Assembly: GCA_033762815.1 (NCBI GenBank)
Contig: JANRLF010000006.1
Coordinates: forward strand, 71,631-135,630
Direction of reading: 5' to 3'
DNA: 64,000 bases
DNA from: Chitinophagales bacterium
Lineage (GTDB): Bacteria; Bacteroidota; Bacteroidia; Chitinophagales; CAIOSU01
In this document: piece by piece, positions 27,963-34,005 of the stretch
How the letters are laid out: the number at the start of each line of letters is the position of its first letter
How positions within the stretch are numbered: the stretch's first letter is position 1
Notes under the pieces: model-generated
Told to the model about the DNA's origin: nothing
The model's database searches: none
The model's input: the letters and a program-made list of their open reading frames with translations, nothing else
Program-made: the position numbers and the translations under genes

Positions 27963-28141
27963 AGTTCAACAAGCTAACCAAAATGATGCTAAATTGTTTC
28001 AATGGACCATTGCAGATTTACAATTTCAGCCTGCTTTGGTTTTGCAGGGATAGACCATTTCTTGTGTCTCTTGGTGGCGATTATAGGGTAGGATTATTCG
28101 CGGTGTTTTATTTTGCAGGAGTCCGACGAGAATGGGAGAAG

Positions 28142-28239
28142 TTTTCCACAATTTAAAGCGAGCCTCAATAGTTTAATCGGCTGTTTTTGAGTCTTTTGTA
28201 TCAATTTATTATGCACACATGAGGTTTTAATGTGGATAA
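28142..28239. promoter_or_regulatory. Three DnaA-box-like 9-mers
   Basis: TTTTCCACA (28142), TTATGCACA (28209) and TGTGGATAA (28231) all fit TTWTNCACA. Confidence 0.4.
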
Positions 28240-28345
28240 TAGGATTTGCAATAGGGGGAGGCAAGGCATTATCTTCGTAATAGAATTTGAGTACATTGAA
28301 TCACAGTTAGGAATATTTTTTGTTAAATTTTACTATCTTGGTGCC

Positions 28346-29398
28346 ATGATTTCAAATCCAAAAATGATTACTCTAGGTCGTGAGTCTAGAGGATTAACCC
28401 AAAAGGAATTGGCTAATCTCCTAAATATAACCCAAGGTAGTATGTCGAAACTTGAGCAAGGTGTGCTTCATGCAAATGAGGATATGCTTTCGCTTTTAGG
28501 TAGGGAACTGAAATATCCCCCGTCATTTTTCACGCAAAAAGGAGATATTCTTCCAGAGAATTTTCTCTACAGAAAGAAAGTCAGCCTATCGGGCACTATG
28601 TTGAAGCGCCAATCATCTTACATGGCAATATGCCGGTTAATGGTACAGCGGATGATTAGCACTAGTTTTGTACCACTTAGAAGATTCCCTGTCATCCAGG
28701 TTACAGAGGAGGTTTCCCCCAGAGATATAGCAAATGCTGTGAGGGAGCAATTGGATATACCCAAGGGGCCGATACTTAACCTAATCGAAGTTGTTGAGAA
28801 GAGTGGCATAATTGTTATCGGGATTGATTTAGATACCGATAAAGTTGCAGGTAAAGGCATCATAACTGAAGGAATACCAATAATTTATTATAACATAAAC
28901 CTTCCTGCTGATAGACAACGTTTTACTATAGCACATGAGTTTGGTCATATTGTAATGCACTTAAACGTTTTCCCAGATGGTGATACTCAGGTAGAGATGG
29001 AAGCCAATAAGTTCGCCTCGGAATTTCTGATGCCTGCAGCACAAATACGTCAAGATCTTTCTGTACCGCTTAACTTAAGTTCATTAGGTGCCCTCAAAAA
29101 GAAATGGAAAGTTTCAATGTCCTCTTTGATTATTCGGGCTAAAGACTTAGGTATAATGAGTGACAGAGAATTTACTTTTTTTATGTCGCGATTTTCACAA
29201 TGGGGCTATAAAATGAGAGAACCTGCACAGTTCGATTTTTTGCCAGAGGAGACTTCCCTATATGAAGAAATGATTGAGAGATTCGCTAAATATAAAGGAG
29301 TCGAAATTATAGATGTTCCAAAGCTATTTTATTTGGATCAAAAGGAATTTTTTGAAAAATATGGAGGTAATTATAGGATGAAATATATGATAAATTAA
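28346..29398 (+). CDS. XRE-HTH plus ImmA/IrrE (peptidase M78) fusion regulator
   Basis: RESRGLTQKELA...SKLEQG HTH; RQRFTIAHEFGH (HExxH) and EMEANKFASEFLMP. Confidence 0.95.
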   Translation: MISNPKMITLGRESRGLTQKELANLLNITQGSMSKLEQGVLHANEDMLSLLGRELKYPPSFFTQKGDILPENFLYRKKVSLSGTMLKRQSSYMAICRLMVQRMISTSFVPLRRFPVIQVTEEVSPRDIANAVREQLDIPKGPILNLIEVVEKSGIIVIGIDLDTDKVAGKGIITEGIPIIYYNINLPADRQRFTIAHEFGHIVMHLNVFPDGDTQVEMEANKFASEFLMPAAQIRQDLSVPLNLSSLGALKKKWKVSMSSLIIRAKDLGIMSDREFTFFMSRFSQWGYKMREPAQFDFLPEETSLYEEMIERFAKYKGVEIIDVPKLFYLDQKEFFEKYGGNYRMKYMIN

Positions 29399-29429
29399 AA
29401 AGCCTGAACCTTTAGAGAAAGGCCCAGGC
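29397..29429 (-). terminator. Rho-independent terminator on the minus strand
   Basis: GCCUGGGCCUUU-CUCU-AAAGGUUCAGGC-UUUUU; pairs fully (with G-U) only on the minus strand. Confidence 0.75.
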
Positions 29430-29485
29430 CTTCGAAAACTGGCAACAAGGTTGGTTACCTTGCAGCAATCAGCTTCAATCTACCA
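29397..29485 (-). ncRNA. Putative counter-transcribed small RNA (~90 nt)
   Basis: Minus-strand TAGCTTTG -7 element (29490-29497) with TTG 20 nt upstream; internal hairpin at 29446-29462; 12-bp terminator stem plus U5 at 29397-29429. Confidence 0.55.
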
Positions 29486-29687
29486 AGAACAAAGCTACAA
29501 TAAGCTCGCCAGTTTTTCAAGACCCCTTTCTCTTAGGTCAGGTATTCCGTCATTAAAAAATGTTAAGAACCTGAAGTAATTGTTTACCAGCAAAGCATTC
29601 TAGGAATGATAGTGTCTACACGACAAAGGGAGAAGCCCCCTATGGGCAAGGCTATGAATTGTTTTATTTATTTTTAATTGTTTTATA

Positions 29688-30035
29688 ATGTATAAATATC
29701 AAATATTTAAAGGTCAAAATGACCAGTACTACTTCCGTTTGAAAGCTGGTAACGGAGAAACCATCTTAAGTAGCGAAGGCTATACAACAAAGCAATCCTG
29801 CGAAGCTGGTATTGCCTCTGTGAGAGTGCACTCGCCTTTTGATGAAAACTATGTTAGGCTTACTTCATCTAACAGTCAGTACTATTTTAATCTCAGGGCA
29901 AAAAACTGGGAAGTTATAGGTAAAAGCGAAACCTATACCACCTCATATGCGCGAGATAATGGTATTGATGCCGTTAAGCGAGAGGGGCCCTTCGCTCCTG
30001 TAGAGGACTTAACTCTTTCAAACAGTTATTATTGA
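29688..30035 (+). CDS. YegP/DUF1508 family protein
   Basis: Two copies of YFRLKAGNGETI..SEGY...GI.SV. Confidence 0.93.
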   Translation: MYKYQIFKGQNDQYYFRLKAGNGETILSSEGYTTKQSCEAGIASVRVHSPFDENYVRLTSSNSQYYFNLRAKNWEVIGKSETYTTSYARDNGIDAVKREGPFAPVEDLTLSNSYY

Positions 30036-30086
30036 TTTTTTTCACCGGGTACAGGCCTTGCCTGTACCCAAACTTAAAATTGTTTT

Positions 30087-30266
30087 ATGAAAAATTTTTA
30101 TTTAGTACAAAGGTCTGTACAGCCTATAAGTCAAGATGCAGCATACTTAAGTATCAGATCTGGTAGAATTGATATTGCTACAACAGGTAGCAATTCAAAA
30201 ATGCTAGTTGGAACAATATGTCTTTGCCTGTTGATTGCAACAATTGCGCACGTAAGTAAAAAGTAA
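30087..30266 (+). CDS. Small hypothetical protein with a C-terminal TM helix (59 aa; not in the ORF track)
   Basis: MKNFYLVQRS...MLVGTICLCLLIATIAHVSKK; AT-rich start context; fills the gap between yegP and the next ORF. Confidence 0.5.
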   Translation: MKNFYLVQRSVQPISQDAAYLSIRSGRIDIATTGSNSKMLVGTICLCLLIATIAHVSKK

Positions 30267-30292
30267 TTTAATAAGTCTAAAAACGAAAAATT

Positions 30293-30466
30293 ATGGCTAA
30301 AAACAAACCCACAGGGGACGGACATCGCATAGGTGCTGTTCGTAATCGCTCACAAGTCTTTAACCCAAAAACTGAACAGTATGTGAAACGTGACACTACT
30401 ACTGGCAGGTTCATAGACGTTAAAACCAGTGGAGGCCCATTTAAAGGTGTAAGAAAAGAGAAGTAA
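30293..30466 (+). CDS. Small basic protein (57 aa; not in the ORF track)
   Basis: MAKNKPTGDGHRIGAVRNRSQVFNPKTEQYVKRDTTTGRFIDVKTSGGPFKGVRKEK, followed by a strong hairpin. Confidence 0.8.
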   Translation: MAKNKPTGDGHRIGAVRNRSQVFNPKTEQYVKRDTTTGRFIDVKTSGGPFKGVRKEK

Positions 30467-30476
30467 AGTAAGGAGA

Positions 30477-30510
30477 GTGAGAGGCTTCAAATAGAAGCCT
30501 CTCACCATTT
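30477..30510 (+). terminator. Terminator hairpin
   Basis: GTGAGAGGCTTC-AAATA-GAAGCCTCTCAC, a perfect 12-bp stem. Confidence 0.75.
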
Positions 30511-30626
30511 GTTAATTTTTCCCCCTTGTTCCAAGTAGATAAGCTGCGCTAATTGACTCGCAACGGGGGGAATAATAACAGCTTTTTCTTAAATAACTCC
30601 CTCTGAAACTAAAACATAGTTGGAGC

Positions 30627-31472
30627 ATGGATGGAAAAATCAACGCCTTTATTCTGATAGCTTTTGCCGTTGCTATGGCTATATACGGCATGGGTGAGGC
30701 GTATCATTCATTTAGGCTGTTTTATGTAGGCAAAATGGTGGAATTGGAAGTAGAAAGTTGCCGCGAGATGCCTGGGGGTCGTTATTCTAATCCCTATACT
30801 TTAATTAAAGCGAAAGGTTTTGATGAAAGTATCAAATTAGTGGAGTTTGAGTGCTATTCTATAGGGAAGTGTTTAATGTTTAAGTACGTGCCTGGTATGG
30901 GTATACGACGGGTTTATAGCAAATCGCTGGCGAGGCAGATTTACACAGAAATTAAAGCCAACCTTAGCATGGCGGTTATGAGCCTTCCCTTTGTTATGTA
31001 TGGCTTTATACAATTTGTAAAACGGGGAAGGCAAAAGTTCATGGTAGTGTATCGCAGGGCGCGTGCAAGCTACAGCATTAGAAGCAACATTGGTGTGTAT
31101 CAGCTTATAAACCGCAATTTATTTATAACTTATCAACTGCTGCCAAGTATAATGATTGTGTACATAAATTGGATATTACTGCTAAAAGTTGGGCAGGGCT
31201 TGTTGTTGGTTGAAGGCGTAAATTCGTTTCTTTGTGGGTGCCTAATGGCCTTATACCTGTGTTACCTGTTTCTGCTTTCTCCTTATTTAATTGAGTGGCT
31301 TTATGAGTTAAAATTTGGCAACAATGAATATGTTGTTTTATTACGTACAGGTGTACAAATAGTATTGCTGTTATACTTTATGGTCACCCTTACTCGGTCA
31401 TTATTGCTTGATGGGGTTACATTTAAGCTTACCACGGATAATTTTTTAGAGTTTTTAGGTGTACATATGTAG
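30627..31472 (+). CDS. Hypothetical membrane protein
   Basis: 281-aa ORF with several TM helices. Confidence 0.65.
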   Translation: MDGKINAFILIAFAVAMAIYGMGEAYHSFRLFYVGKMVELEVESCREMPGGRYSNPYTLIKAKGFDESIKLVEFECYSIGKCLMFKYVPGMGIRRVYSKSLARQIYTEIKANLSMAVMSLPFVMYGFIQFVKRGRQKFMVVYRRARASYSIRSNIGVYQLINRNLFITYQLLPSIMIVYINWILLLKVGQGLLLVEGVNSFLCGCLMALYLCYLFLLSPYLIEWLYELKFGNNEYVVLLRTGVQIVLLLYFMVTLTRSLLLDGVTFKLTTDNFLEFLGVHM

Positions 31473-31686
31473 CCTACCCACTGTTGTGCCTAGCTTTCAG
31501 CTAAGTACAACTAGTATGGTAGCTTACAGCTACCTTCCGTAAGGAACCCCGCCGAATGATATTTACCCCCACCCAACCATCACCACATCGCCCCAAAAAA
31601 AACCACCCACCGAACACCTACCCACTGCATGCTGGCCGGGGCACATTTCAGGTCGCTAGCTACCCTAGCCTGCCACTGAGCATATA

Positions 31687-31812
31687 CCCATTTACCCATT
31701 TTTTGATTTGGATTATTCGCACTAAGTGCTTACCATTGATAATGTGCTGATGTGCTAATGTGCTGGTGTGCTGGTGTGCTGATTGATTTGAAAATTTGGT
31801 GATTTGGAAATT
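31687..31812. repeat. Repeat block A (8-bp TGTGCTGR/ATTTG microrepeats); inverted copy at 48253-48365
   Basis: CCCATTTACCCATTTTTTGATTTGG...GCACTAAGTGCTTACCATT is the reverse complement of 48315-48364. Confidence 0.9.
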
Positions 31813-31865
31813 TTTAGTCCCTCTCCCCGGCGTGTGTCTGTGGGAAGGCAGGGAGAGGAACTGAG

Positions 31866-32037
31866 GAAAAAACAAAAAAACACACTCATTTTAACAGAAA
31901 TTACTGACAATCAATAAACTAATGCAAACTGAAGTACTACTGAAGTACCACTGAAGTATCACCGAAATACTACTGAAACTATACTGAAGTACTACTGAAA
32001 CATCACTGAAGTACTACCGAAATACTACCGAAACAGC
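31866..32037 (+). repeat. Module 1: A-tract leader, 9 x 11-bp units (GAAGTACTACT-like) and GAAACAGC
   Basis: Units start at 31931, 31942 ... 32019. Confidence 0.95.
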
Positions 32038-32160
32038 TTTTTTGATGCTTCAATGAATTTGGAAATTTGGTGATTTGAAAATTTGAAAATGGCAAAGTGC
32101 AATTGTAAATCTGAAATCGTAAATCGTAAATCCCTCTACTTTCTACCCTCTACGAAAAGA

Positions 32161-32329
32161 GAAAAAACAAAAAAACACACTTTTTACACAACACATTGAT
32201 AAACACCCAATTAATAAGATTTGAACTACCTGCGAGATACCCTTGAACACCCCTTGAAGCACCTGCGAGATACCCTTGAAGTACCCGCGAACACCCCTTG
32301 AACTACCTGCGAAATACCTGCGAAACGGC
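32161..32329 (+). repeat. Module 2: A-tract leader, 9 x 11-bp units (GAACTACCTGC/GAACACCCCTT-like) and GAAACGGC
   Basis: Units start at 32223, 32234 ... 32311. Confidence 0.95.
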
Positions 32330-32555
32330 TTTTTTAAGCAAAATCCAGTTTCGGGCATGGGGAACAATCTCCCGTAGCTGGGATGGCTATGGTAGTTAAT
32401 CCACAAGCTTCCATGATGTTGGTTAAGATACGTTTTTAGGGATTGTATAAAATAGCTGAACCGCAGGAGATTAATTATTTATTTAAACCGTAACTACTTG
32501 ATGGCATTAATATTGATTGAGTATTTGCCTAATTCTAACCCAAAAACAACCAATT

Positions 32556-32762
32556 ATGGCTGACAGGAATCAAAATACCGGCGGACAAGGTAATCAAGGC
32601 AATACCGGCCGTCAAGGACAACAAGGCCAAGGTGGCCAACAAGGACAAGGTGGTCAACAAGGCCAAAAAGGCAACCAACCCGGCCAAAGGGAACGTGAAA
32701 TGGACCAAGATTTGGACCAAGACGCTGATACCAACACCGGTGGTGCTGGCCGTGCATTGTAA
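32556..32762 (+). CDS. Small Gln/Gly-rich low-complexity protein
   Basis: MADRNQNTGGQGNQG...GQQGQGGQQGQGGQQGQKG...DQDLDQDAD; A-rich start context. Confidence 0.7.
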   Translation: MADRNQNTGGQGNQGNTGRQGQQGQGGQQGQGGQQGQKGNQPGQREREMDQDLDQDADTNTGGAGRAL

Positions 32763-32838
32763 CTTGTAAGCTATAATGCCGACCTTAAATACCAAACAAA
32801 GCTTTGACAAATTATCAAAGCAGTAAAAACCGACAAGA

Positions 32839-32864
32839 ATAGCCCATCATATATGATGGGCTAT
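32839..32864. terminator. Perfect palindrome between convergent genes
   Basis: ATAGCCCATCATATATGATGGGCTAT. Confidence 0.7.
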
Positions 32865-32869
32865 CTCTA

Positions 32870-33568
32870 TTAGTGGCACTTTCCTTTGCCCATTTCAATA
32901 CCATTGATTTTTGGGCTGATGTAAGGAATACCAAGGTTTAAACCCCTGAAAATGAACATTACCGCAAATACGAGCATAAAAACGGGTATCAGTTTGCGCG
33001 CCGACGACTTAATGCGTGTACCGGCAATACTGCCCAGCATGGCTACACTGAACATTAATGGTATAGTGCCCAAACCAAACAAAGCCATATAGGCCGCGCC
33101 CATAAGCGGTGTACCCATATGGATAGCCCCCAAAATGCCCACATATACAAAGCCGCAGGGCAAAAGGCCATTTAATAGGCCAATGTAGAATAGCGAGGCT
33201 TGGCTGTTGTGCTTCAAAAACCTGCCTAGAATAGCGGCTACCCTAGCCTGCAACCATCGCAGGGGAGGTAGTTTGTTCAGTAGCCGTTCAGGGTTGGCCG
33301 AGGTGATGGCCACCACGAGCAGCAAAATACCCAAGCCGATAGATACCCATTGCTGTACACCTGCTATGGCAAAGCCCTTGCCCATAAGGCCAAAAATGCC
33401 ACCCAAAAAGCTATAGGTAACCGTTCTGCCCAAATTATAGAGCAGTCGGCTATTGGCCATGGCCCAACGGGTACTAAAGCCGCCAGGCAATGCCAAGGCG
33501 ATGGGCCCGCACATGCCCACGCAGTGTAAGCTACCTACCAACCCTATGGCTAATGCGGTCCAAAGCAT
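32870..33568 (-). CDS. Sulfite exporter TauE/SafE (DsbD_2) family cbb3 accessory protein
   Basis: GSLHCVGMCGP, YNLGR, GLLPCGFVY and FGLGT motifs. Confidence 0.92.
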   Translation of the reverse strand: MLWTALAIGLVGSLHCVGMCGPIALALPGGFSTRWAMANSRLLYNLGRTVTYSFLGGIFGLMGKGFAIAGVQQWVSIGLGILLLVVAITSANPERLLNKLPPLRWLQARVAAILGRFLKHNSQASLFYIGLLNGLLPCGFVYVGILGAIHMGTPLMGAAYMALFGLGTIPLMFSVAMLGSIAGTRIKSSARKLIPVFMLVFAVMFIFRGLNLGIPYISPKINGIEMGKGKCH

Positions 33569-34005
33569 CAGTTGATATGGATGACCTGTTCATCGAAATA
33601 GGCTATGCCATCGCACTCCCAGCTAACCTGCACCTTCCAGTTGCCCTTTGCCATGCCAGCGGTATTCACTACTTGCTGATGGGCCTCGTCCATAAGTATC
33701 GGTACTTGTTGATCCTTACTGGCATCGGCGGGCCGGTACATCTTCACCGTGCCGTTTACCGACTTTTTGTCTTTGGGAAACTTGAGCACCACTTCCTGCT
33801 TGCTACAGCTTATTTGCAGCTTTTCCTTTAGCTGCTGGCTATTCTGTTGCTCGTTGATACGCTGCTGGTAGTTGATTTCCTGTTGGTAGTAATCTTTCGT
33901 TACCAAGTTAAAATCCTCTTGGGAGGAACGGATCACCAATGCGAGCATTCCTATGGCAAATGAACCGTACAACAAAGCTATTTTATATCCCCAGTGAAAA
34001 TTCAT
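33568..34005 (-). CDS. ccoH: FixH family protein
   Basis: WG..I..., LVTKDYYQQE and YRPAD motifs; position in the cco cluster. Confidence 0.88.
   Translation of the reverse strand: MNFHWGYKIALLYGSFAIGMLALVIRSSQEDFNLVTKDYYQQEINYQQRINEQQNSQQLKEKLQISCSKQEVVLKFPKDKKSVNGTVKMYRPADASKDQQVPILMDEAHQQVVNTAGMAKGNWKVQVSWECDGIAYFDEQVIHIN

What the first reader, a model, noticed from the sequence alone, without database searches (positions are those of the whole stretch)
29397..29574. Probable counter-transcribed sRNA whose sequence is mirrored over its own promoter, between an XRE-ImmA regulator and yegP
Seen: on the minus strand there is a Bacteroidota-type promoter (TAGCTTTG at 29490-29497, TTG 20 nt upstream), an internal hairpin (CAAGGT/ACCTTG, 29446-29462) and a 12-bp stem plus U5 terminator that pairs fully only on that strand. 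Together these define a ~90-nt RNA converging on the ImmA stop codon. Its 3' half (GCCAGTTTTCGAAGGCCTGGGCCTTTCTCTAAAGGTTCAGG) reappears on the plus strand at 29508-29542 (GCCAGTTTTTCAAGACCCCTTTCTCTTAGGTCAGG), with two identical 9-mers, and that copy overlaps the -33 element. The end of that arm (TCAGGT, 29538) can alternatively pair with ACCTGA (29569). Inference: this is either an antisense-controlled attenuator on the immA-to-yegP read-through transcript, as in plasmid ctRNA systems, or, more speculatively, an RNA that recognises its own promoter DNA. I do not recognise it as a named RNA family.
Basis: partly seen in the sequence, partly recalled or inferred. Interest (0 to 1): 0.85.

Follow-up and report, generated by a model that had tools for sequence, protein, structure and literature searches.

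The report
Orphan small-RNA candidate beside XRE-peptidase gene
A short non-coding stretch after a regulator gene has the promoter, hairpins and terminator of a small-RNA gene about 88 bases long, plus a real mirrored copy of its 3' half, but it occurs in no other genome searched and its expression could not be tested, so it remains an ordinary, unproven strain-specific small-RNA candidate.

Summary
On the minus strand there is a TAGCTTTG -7 box with TTG 20 nt upstream, a 7-bp internal hairpin, and a 12-16-bp hairpin followed by U5. The hairpin pairs fully only on that strand (92-nt fold -38.5 kcal/mol, z -4.8; plus strand z -1.8). The mirrored arm is a real imperfect inverted repeat (31 matches in 41 columns); 6 of 61,680 other genome chunks score as high.

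Genome-wide, only three ORF-free units combine the full promoter motif with a terminator. Two are tRNA genes and the third is this one. That favours a genuine ~88-nt RNA gene (about 0.5-0.6).

Nothing else could be shown:
- No Rfam family matches and there is no second copy in the genome.
- No homolog turned up in about 800 Bacteroidia genomes, 117 loci of XRE-M78 relatives, plasmids, phages or viral contigs.
- No sequencing run was listed, so expression is untested.

The locus sits in a ~5.9-kb genome-specific island with no same-genus relative, so lack of conservation says little.

The ctRNA-type attenuator idea is not supported. No alternative terminator forms (z 0.05), and yegP follows none of the 117 relatives. 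Recognition of promoter DNA has no evidence. Verdict: a plausible new member of a known kind; low to moderate interest.

The parts
29490..29497 (-). -7 promoter box TAGCTTTG (Bacteroidota sigma-A type, TAnnTTTG)
   Evidence: Motif density is 1.56/kb on gene-leading strands against 0.39/kb on other intergenic strands. It precedes 21 of 36 tRNA genes. The consensus is quoted in PMC7366714 (passages).
29518..29520 (-). -33-like TTG, 20 nt upstream of the -7 box, inside the right arm of the inverted repeat
   Evidence: TTG at N19-21 accompanies 9 of the 21 tRNA -7 boxes, against 149 of 2333 boxes in coding DNA.
29394..29485 (-). Predicted RNA of about 88-92 nt. The start is inferred at about 29481-29485 and the end at about 29394-29398 in the U run; neither end is mapped.
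   Evidence: Fold -38.5 kcal/mol, z -4.77, 0 of 200 shuffles as good. No ORF of 20 aa or more with an ATG start on this strand.
29435..29476 (-). Stem-loop 1: outer 7-bp stem plus inner 7-bp hairpin GCAAGGU/ACCUUGU, followed by UUUU
   Evidence: My scanner also flagged it as a hairpin followed by a T run (-11.4 kcal/mol).
29397..29433 (-). Intrinsic terminator: 12-bp G+C-rich stem (29402-29413 / 29418-29429), 4-nt loop, U5 at 29401-29397 that overlaps the XRE-M78 stop codon (29396-29398)
   Evidence: 16 pairs, 6 G-C, minus strand only; -17.0 kcal/mol; for the strand asymmetry.
29403..29443 (.). Left arm of the imperfect inverted repeat (equals the linker plus terminator of the predicted RNA)
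29508..29542 (.). Right arm of the inverted repeat (the 'mirror'), upstream of and overlapping the -33 element
   Evidence: It pairs with the left arm in the plus-strand folds.
28346..29398 (+). XRE HTH + M78 peptidase gene (RmrA/ImmA-like). The likely start is ATG 28346; the ORF is open from GTG 28232.
   Evidence: Pfam; PADLOC RmrA E 7.2e-57; relatives align from residue 42 onward.
29688..30035 (+). yegP-like DUF1508 gene (two DUF1508 repeats)
   Evidence: Pfam E 7.6e-38

Best explanation
The interval 29394-29485 (minus strand) is most likely a small, strain-specific RNA gene of about 88 nt. It has its own Bacteroidota-type promoter and a Rho-independent terminator. It converges on the stop codon of an RmrA/ImmA-like XRE-M78 gene, inside a ~5.9-kb island that related genomes lack.

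Shown: the sequence signals, the strand-specific fold, the absence of an ORF, and the fact that this signature otherwise marks real RNA genes in this genome.

Inferred: that it is transcribed, and what it does. The mode of action I commit to is base-pairing in cis, at about 0.2-0.25.
- The XRE-M78 gene has no U-tract terminator of its own on the plus strand.
- Its transcripts must therefore run into a stretch perfectly complementary to the small RNA.
- There they can either fold into a ~145-nt hairpin (left arm with mirrored right arm) or pair with the small RNA.
- That pairing would compete with the right arm and mark the 3' end for processing, or limit read-through.

A trans-acting role through the single-stranded 5' end (UGGUAGAUU) is about equally possible.
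For: Sequence signals:
- -7 box, -33 TTG, two hairpins and U5 lie in the right order and spacing.
- Minus-strand fold z -4.77 against -1.77 for the plus strand.
- Two G.U pairs make the terminator complete only on the minus strand.

Genome-wide calibration:
- The -7 motif is 4-fold enriched on gene-leading strands.
- 21 of 36 tRNA genes carry it within 120 nt upstream, and 9 of 36 also carry the TTG.
- Of 62 orphan terminators (dG <= -12), 15 rows (14 intergenic regions) have a -7 box 10-300 nt upstream. For terminators that follow genes the figure is 14 of 185.
- Only 3 units have the full motif. The other two are tRNA genes, and 5 of the 12 other units examined are tRNA genes.
- From background motif rates I estimate 0.2-0.6 such full-motif units genome-wide by chance (my arithmetic).

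Other:
- No plausible ORF on either strand of the spacer.
- Literature (PMC7366714, passages seen): in B. thetaiotaomicron 49 high-confidence intergenic sRNAs have a TSS plus an intrinsic terminator. 27 of them are strain-specific, and 76% of intergenic sRNA candidates carry the canonical promoter.
Against: - There are no expression data.
- No homolog exists, so there is no covariation: own genome; 17 family genomes; 400 order genomes; 150 relatives with a covariance model, giving one chance terminator hit at E 0.007; 400 class genomes; 100 of the 117 fetched XRE-M78 loci with the model and all 117 by blastn-short.
- The hairpin is part of a larger palindrome that is non-random in its own right and folds strongly on the plus strand too (z -6.83). 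The terminator hairpin therefore need not exist because of an sRNA.
- The -7 motif occurs by chance about 0.1 times per spacer strand of this length.
- G+C content is unremarkable (67th percentile of intergenic 92-nt windows).
- yegP's own terminator hairpin lacks a U run. Absence of a U run on the plus strand is therefore weak evidence against a plus-strand role.
- Crude duplex scoring gave no special complementarity to the start regions of neighbouring genes.
Confidence: 0.5

Rival explanations
1. The real element is the ~145-nt imperfect palindrome (29400-29545). It would act as a large 3'-UTR hairpin, terminator or insulator of the XRE-M78 mRNA on the plus strand, or be a decaying relic of an older perfect palindrome or rearrangement scar. 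The promoter match on the minus strand would be fortuitous and no discrete sRNA would be made.
For: - The 155-nt plus-strand fold is -54.9 kcal/mol, z -6.83. That is more extreme than the 92-nt minus-strand RNA.
- The 316-nt plus-strand fold uses the long-range pairing.
- The inverted repeat is beyond chance.
- In 57 of 67 relatives' loci a ~70-aa DUF4248/HTH-like gene follows the XRE-M78 gene within about 20-60 nt. That gene is missing here, so this spacer is a site of gene loss or rearrangement.
- yegP's terminator shows that plus-strand hairpins without a U run occur in this genome.
Against: - It does not explain the U5 tract, or the two G.U pairs that complete the local hairpin on the minus strand only.
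- It does not explain the full promoter motif at the right distance. That combination otherwise marks only tRNA genes here.
- The spacer shows no trace of the lost small gene: HMM scores are negative and it ranks about 385th among 1662 intergenic reading frames.
- The arms carry 3 indels and 7 mismatches, with no strand bias in the long-range pairing (my reading).
Confidence: 0.28
2. A ctRNA-like antisense attenuator. The small RNA would pair with an XRE-M78-to-yegP read-through transcript and switch it into a terminating fold, thereby controlling yegP.
For: - The RNA would be perfectly complementary to any read-through transcript.
- The right arm could be released when the left arm is bound.
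- There is no perfect -7 box for yegP on the plus strand of the spacer.
Against: - The released leader 29486-29690 has no terminator-like hairpin and folds like shuffled sequence (z 0.05).
- The TCAGGT/ACCTGA pairing is 6 bp across a 25-nt loop with no U run.
- A one-mismatch -7 box lies 11 nt before the yegP ATG. Motif-to-ATG distances of 10-20 nt are common in this genome (95 of 488).
- yegP follows the relative's gene in 0 of 117 loci.
- yegP homologs elsewhere (4 loci) have short, unrelated upstream regions.
Confidence: 0.06
3. A phase-variable promoter (inverton). The inverted repeat would flank a promoter that now fires toward the XRE-M78 gene and, after inversion, would fire toward yegP.
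For: - The inverted arms bracket the -7 box.
- Invertons are common in Bacteroidota (recalled, not from a call).
- yegP lacks a perfect promoter of its own.
Against: - The arms are only 31 of 41 identical and carry 3 indels, whereas active invertons keep near-identical arms (recalled).
- The -33 element lies in the arm, and its mirrored position reads TTC rather than TTG.
- No recombinase domain was found in any of the 16 ORFs between 25469 and 35426 that I scanned against Pfam.
- The segment between the arms is only 64 bp.
Confidence: 0.04
4. The terminator ends a longer minus-strand transcript that starts further upstream, for example an antisense RNA to yegP from the -7 box TAAGTTTG at 30069-30076. 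The TAGCTTTG box would be incidental.
For: - A second minus-strand -7 box lies just downstream of yegP.
- In the 316-nt minus-strand fold the terminator hairpin still forms.
Against: - That box has no TTG at N19-21 (read).
- It sits on a non-leading strand, where the motif is at background density.
- There are no data on transcripts.
Confidence: 0.05

Closest known systems
Canonical intergenic sRNAs of Bacteroidota (e.g. the 49 'high-confidence' B. thetaiotaomicron sRNAs such as GibS; PMC7366714, passages seen)
   Same: Own TAnnTTTG-type promoter, length about 90 nt, Rho-independent terminator, single-stranded 5' end, no ORF, intergenic position. Many of those sRNAs (27 of 49) are strain-specific, as this one appears to be.
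   Different: There is no expression evidence and no sequence or structure relation to any described sRNA (no Rfam match). It carries an unusual mirrored copy of its 3' half across its own promoter.
Plasmid counter-transcribed RNAs (ctRNA, pIP501/pT181-type attenuation)
   Same: A short, highly structured RNA made opposite to a possible read-through or leader transcript, ending in a terminator.
   Different: Chromosomal island with no rep gene. The sense strand has no alternative terminator. The downstream gene is an unrelated yegP and is not conserved in this position.
RosmerTA / ImmA-type XRE-M78 antitoxin modules (10.1101/2022.05.11.491447 and PMC10440598, passages seen)
   Same: The neighbouring gene matches PADLOC RmrA models over nearly its full length (E 7.2e-57) and has HTH + M78 domains.
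   Different: There is no recognisable protein partner next to it. Neither yegP nor the 281-aa ORF matches any PADLOC family. The small DUF4248/HTH-like gene that follows most relatives (57 of 67) is absent from the whole genome.
Bacteroides invertible promoters (invertons)
   Same: A promoter bracketed by inverted repeats.
   Different: The arms are degenerate with indels, no recombinase is nearby, the invertible segment would be very short, and the orientation states could not be tested.

Membership tests
Canonical intergenic sRNA gene (Bacteroidota) | Own sigma-A-type promoter (-7 TAnnTTTG, optional -33 TTTG) | tested here: met
   TAGCTTTG at 29490-29497 with TTG 20 nt upstream. The motif is validated as a promoter signal in this genome.
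Canonical intergenic sRNA gene (Bacteroidota) | Rho-independent terminator at the 3' end on the same strand | tested here: met
   12-16-bp stem plus U5, minus strand only.
Canonical intergenic sRNA gene (Bacteroidota) | No coding potential | tested here: met
   Only TTG-start ORFs of 21-32 aa on the minus strand. The 42-aa plus-strand ORF has no Pfam hit.
Canonical intergenic sRNA gene (Bacteroidota) | Detected transcript with mapped 5' and 3' ends | not testable with these tools
   No sequencing run was listed for this DNA.
Any Rfam family | Score at or above the family's gathering threshold | tested here: not met
   0 matches in the whole window at gathering scores. The best sub-threshold hit is snoR83, 25.4 bits against 40.
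Plasmid-type ctRNA attenuator | The sense leader can adopt a terminator when the antisense RNA is bound | tested here: not met
   29486-29690 plus strand: z 0.05, no hairpin followed by a U run.
Plasmid-type ctRNA attenuator | Located upstream of a replication initiator gene on a plasmid | tested here: not met
   The downstream gene is DUF1508. No plasmid match. The flanks are chromosomal core genes shared with family relatives.
Inverton | Near-identical inverted repeats flanking a promoter | tested here: inconclusive
   The arms flank the -7 box but share only 31 of 41 positions, with 3 indels.
Inverton | Both orientations present in sequencing reads | not testable with these tools
   No run listed.
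Type I toxin-antitoxin | Small hydrophobic toxin ORF opposite the antisense RNA | tested here: not met
   The only overlapping plus-strand ORF (42 aa, TTG start) is polar and unmatched.
MITE / dispersed palindromic repeat | Multiple copies in the genome | tested here: not met
   Single copy by BLAST and by covariance model. The 5 best partial matches to the arm elsewhere lie inside ORFs and are unrelated.
RosmerTA (for the neighbouring gene) | HTH + M78 antitoxin next to a toxin gene | tested here: inconclusive
   The antitoxin-like protein is present. No neighbouring ORF matches an RmrT or any other PADLOC model except the unrelated PDC-S38.

The most novel reading that the evidence does not exclude
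In 57 of 67 related loci the slot just after the XRE-M78 gene holds a small protein gene. Here a structured RNA gene fills that slot, with its 3' half mirrored across its own promoter. The boldest reading not excluded is that the RNA has taken over as the functional partner of this RmrA/ImmA-like regulator. The palindrome would form a self-regulating switch: a sense read-through hairpin competing with the sense/antisense duplex, or a promoter buried in an extrudable cruciform. That would be an RNA-partnered XRE-M78 module.
Probability: 0.04. Interest if true: 0.65.

Novelty: new member of a known kind. Interest (0 to 1): 0.25.

Why it matters
If the RNA is expressed, it adds one more strain-specific intergenic sRNA to a phylum whose RNA regulators are little known. 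It would sit next to a defence/TA-type XRE-M78 regulator that has lost its usual protein neighbour, which offers a small, tractable case of convergent sRNA/3'-UTR interplay. The genome-wide check used here, full promoter motif plus orphan terminator with tRNA genes as positive controls, is a cheap way to rank such candidates in uncultured Bacteroidota. As it stands the candidate is unconserved and unverified, so its general importance is limited.

Tried and rejected
Searches and tests that gave nothing:
- Known RNA family: none. tRNA or tmRNA: none.
- Second copy or dispersed repeat: none.
- Conservation by BLAST in 17 family genomes. The only match, E 0.0018, falls in the AT-rich stretch before yegP.
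- Conservation in 400 order genomes. 65 genomes besides G000 had short matches, mostly to the same AT-rich stretch. 8 places of 33 nt or less overlap the candidate. I examined only the best of them (G112), which lies inside a 511-aa ORF.
- 400 class genomes searched with 3.6 kb: only yegP coding DNA and the small gene at 30293-30466 matched.
- Single-sequence covariance model R1 on 150 relatives: one hit at E 0.007, which is a generic terminator. On 100 of the 117 XRE-M78 loci (L031-L130; L131-L147 were not searched with the model): one hit at E 0.26.
- Viral contigs: two exact patterns and the XRE-M78 protein gave nothing. Plasmids and phages by blastn gave nothing.
- Closest XRE-M78 relatives are only 37-38% identical, so no near-homologous locus exists for comparison.
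- Pseudogene of the conserved downstream DUF4248/HTH-like gene: rejected. A short LA.I....PRT resemblance in one reading frame did not score.
- Operator-like copies of the two 9-mers upstream of the XRE gene: none.
- Target prediction with RNA.duplexfold against 2803 start regions: the energies looked unrealistic and the neighbouring genes ranked low. I treat this as uninformative.
- G+C content: not distinctive.
- Sequencing runs: none was listed and no RNA holder was listed.
Supplements of papers were not requested; supplementary sRNA tables of PMC7366714 could hold related candidates that I could not see.
- Complex prediction, structure prediction, the search for homologous proteins and the protein atlas were not used, because no claim here depends on them.
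Full report
WHAT IS THERE. The 289-nt spacer 29399-29687 lies between two plus-strand genes. The left gene is an XRE HTH + M78 peptidase gene. Its ORF runs 28232-29398, and the likely true start is ATG 28346, because relatives align from residue 42 onward. The right gene is a DUF1508/yegP gene at 29688-30035.
- TAGCTTTG lies on the minus strand at 29490-29497, with TTG 20 nt upstream (29520-29518).
- A 7-bp hairpin GCAAGGU/ACCUUGU is present.
- A 12-bp G+C-rich stem (29402-29413 / 29418-29429, 4-nt loop) can extend to 16 pairs and is followed by U5.
- The U5 tract (29401-29397) overlaps the XRE-M78 stop codon (29396-29398).

STRAND ASYMMETRY. The 92-nt minus-strand RNA 29485->29394 folds at -38.5 kcal/mol (z -4.77, 0 of 200 shuffles as good). 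The same interval on the plus strand is unremarkable (101 nt: -24.0, z -1.77, 10 of 200). The difference comes from two G.U pairs in the terminator stem, which are A.C mismatches on the plus strand. The T run is also present on the minus strand only.

THE MIRROR. The left arm 29403-29443, read on the minus strand, aligns with 29508-29542 on the plus strand. There are 31 matches in 41 columns, 3 indels and two identical 9-mers. I scored the left arm against every 224-nt chunk of the genome on both strands. Only 6 of 61,680 chunks outside the locus (5 places) reach the same score, and all lie inside ORFs and are unrelated. The inverted repeat is therefore real, at about 1e-4 for the adjacent stretch. 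Because it is an inverted repeat, it folds on either strand. The 155-nt interval 29396-29550 gives -54.9 kcal/mol (z -6.83) on the plus strand and -65.1 (z -5.39) on the minus strand. In a 316-nt plus-strand RNA the arms pair with each other. In the minus-strand RNA the local terminator hairpin is kept.

IS THE PROMOTER-TERMINATOR UNIT MORE THAN CHANCE? I laid the whole genome (3.46 Mb, 13 contigs, 88.5% complete) in the Python box and made crude gene calls (2806 ORFs).
- TAnnTTTG occurs at 1.56 per kb on intergenic strands that lead into a gene start. It occurs at 0.39 per kb on other intergenic strands and 0.37 per kb in coding DNA.
- The full motif TTG-N19-21-TAnnTTTG occurs at 0.179, 0.061 and 0.024 per kb respectively.
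- Of 36 tRNA genes, 21 have the -7 box within 120 nt upstream and 9 also have the TTG. The motif is therefore a working promoter signal here.
- A simple scan for a hairpin followed by T4 found 418 sites in or near intergenic regions. 274 follow a gene end and 144 are 'orphans'.
- Among orphans with dG <= -12 (62 sites), 15 rows (14 intergenic regions) have a -7 box 10-300 nt upstream on the same strand. For gene-end terminators the figure is 14 of 185.
- Only three orphan units have the full motif: this one, C1:327718-328047 and C13:884-1434.
- I fetched 12 of the 13 other regions; C3:209633-209690 was not fetched. Rfam finds a tRNA in 5 of the 12, including both other full-motif units.
- From the background motif rates I estimate 0.2-0.6 chance full-motif units genome-wide.

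The signature therefore picks out genuine RNA genes in this genome. The third unit is more likely real than not, but one false positive would not be surprising.

WHAT IT IS NOT.
- No Rfam family reaches threshold in the window. The best sub-threshold hits are chance (snoR83, 25 bits against 40).
- It is not a tRNA or tmRNA.
- It is not a repeat. It is single copy by BLAST and by a covariance model built from the candidate (R1).
- It shows no coding potential. Minus-strand ORFs are 21-32 aa with TTG starts. The 42-aa plus-strand ORF is polar, starts with TTG and has no Pfam hit.
- It is not a type I toxin-antitoxin layout.

CONSERVATION. None was found, but the test has little power.
- The genus has no other representative.
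- Relatives of the family share the flanking carotenoid-type genes (to about 27970) and the cbb3-maturation genes (from about 33850). They share nothing in between. The locus therefore lies in a ~5.9-kb genome-specific island.
- BLAST of the spacer found only short matches to the AT-rich stretch before yegP, plus a few matches of 33 nt or less (17 family genomes and 400 order genomes). The best match lies inside a 511-aa ORF.
- Model R1 gave one chance terminator hit in 150 relatives.
- The island DNA matched only yegP coding sequence and a small gene in 400 class genomes.
- Plasmids, phages and viral contigs gave nothing.
- The XRE-M78 protein has no relative above 38% identity among 48 genome loci and 69 metagenome loci.
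- None of those 117 loci has similarity to the spacer or a yegP homolog. R1 found nothing in the 100 loci searched.

CONTEXT.
- The XRE-M78 protein matches PADLOC RmrA models over nearly its full length (E 7.2e-57). RmrA is the Zn-peptidase antitoxin of RosmerTA systems (passages).
- In 57 of 67 relatives' loci with at least 270 nt of downstream DNA, a ~70-aa DUF4248/HTH-like gene follows on the same strand. The HMM used for that count was built from 25 of those genes, and a few contigs occur in both collections.
- That gene is absent here. The spacer gives negative HMM scores and ranks about 385th among 1662 intergenic reading frames. No copy exists anywhere in the genome.
- The spacer is thus a place where the usual partner gene was lost or replaced.

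MECHANISM. The ctRNA-type attenuator is not supported.
- Once the left arm is taken away, the rest of the plus-strand leader (29486-29690) folds like shuffled sequence (z 0.05). It has no hairpin followed by a U run.
- yegP has a one-mismatch -7 box 11 nt before its ATG, a distance common in this genome.
- yegP homologs elsewhere have short, unrelated upstream regions.

What does follow from the anatomy is this. The XRE-M78 gene has no U-tract terminator on its own strand, so its transcripts must enter a region fully complementary to the candidate RNA. There they can form the arm-arm hairpin. If both RNAs are made, a sense/antisense duplex competing with that hairpin is nearly unavoidable. This is inference; nothing is shown. 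A trans-acting role through the free 5' end is equally open. A crude duplex screen was uninformative. An inverton reading is unlikely: the arms are degenerate, no recombinase domain was found in the 16 ORFs scanned between 25469 and 35426, and only 64 bp lie between the arms. It remains untestable without reads.

COMPARISON WITH THE KNOWN. The unit looks like the canonical intergenic sRNAs mapped in Bacteroides thetaiotaomicron (PMC7366714, passages seen). [quoted passage not shown] 27 of them are strain-specific, and 76% of intergenic sRNA candidates carry the canonical promoter. By that yardstick an unconserved promoter-plus-terminator sRNA is ordinary. The only unusual trait is the mirrored 3' half spanning its promoter.

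VERDICT.
- Observation: confirmed.
- Interpretation: partly supported. An sRNA gene is plausible at about 0.5-0.6. The attenuator is unsupported, and recognition of promoter DNA is without evidence.
- Novelty: a new member of a known kind, if it is expressed.
- Interest: 0.25.

Noticed in passing
window 31591-32339: A ~750-bp non-coding element with more than 20 full or partial copies on at least 9 contigs of the same genome, at 71-100% identity over the matched parts. It contains 11-nt tandem repeats (31917-32045, 32221-32330). No Rfam hit and no Pfam hit for its short ORFs. One 42-nt match at 93% identity occurs in a family relative (G006).
   Followed up: partly
window 30293-30466 (+): A 57-aa gene that matches the PADLOC candidate defence family PDC-S38 over its full length (E 1.6e-34). 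It is 78% identical at DNA level to a stretch in a genome of another family (G785). A hairpin followed by TTT lies at about 30476-30510.
   Followed up: partly
loci L031-L106 (relatives of the XRE-M78 gene): 57 of 67 relatives' loci carry a conserved ~70-aa DUF4248/MerR-HTH-like gene about 20-60 nt downstream on the same strand. This looks like a conserved two-gene module. The small gene has no PADLOC match and is absent from the window's genome.
   Followed up: partly
window ~27970-33850: A genome-specific island: XRE-M78, the RNA candidate, yegP, PDC-S38, a 281-aa ORF with no family, and the repeat element. It lies between core genes that are syntenic in 13 of 17 family relatives.
   Followed up: partly
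G000: C1:364337-364847, C3:42766-43055, C3:209633-209690, C5:119824-120718, C7:66763-67095, C11:30431-30639, C12:104579-105158, C13:42324-43311: Eight further intergenic regions have a -7 box 10-300 nt upstream of an orphan hairpin followed by a T run. The seven I fetched show no tRNA or other Rfam match at E <= 0.01; C3:209633-209690 was not fetched. They are possible sRNA genes, 5' leaders or small uncalled ORFs.
   Followed up: no
window 30047-30069: The hairpin after yegP (GGGTACAGGC/GCCTGTACCC) has no T run on either strand. At least some gene-end hairpins in this genome therefore lack a U tract, which weakens any argument from a missing U run.
   Followed up: no
window 28232-28346: The annotated-style ORF of the XRE-M78 gene starts at GTG 28232. 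All relatives align only from residue 42 onward, and an ATG at 28346 (MISNPKM...) is the probable true start.
   Followed up: partly
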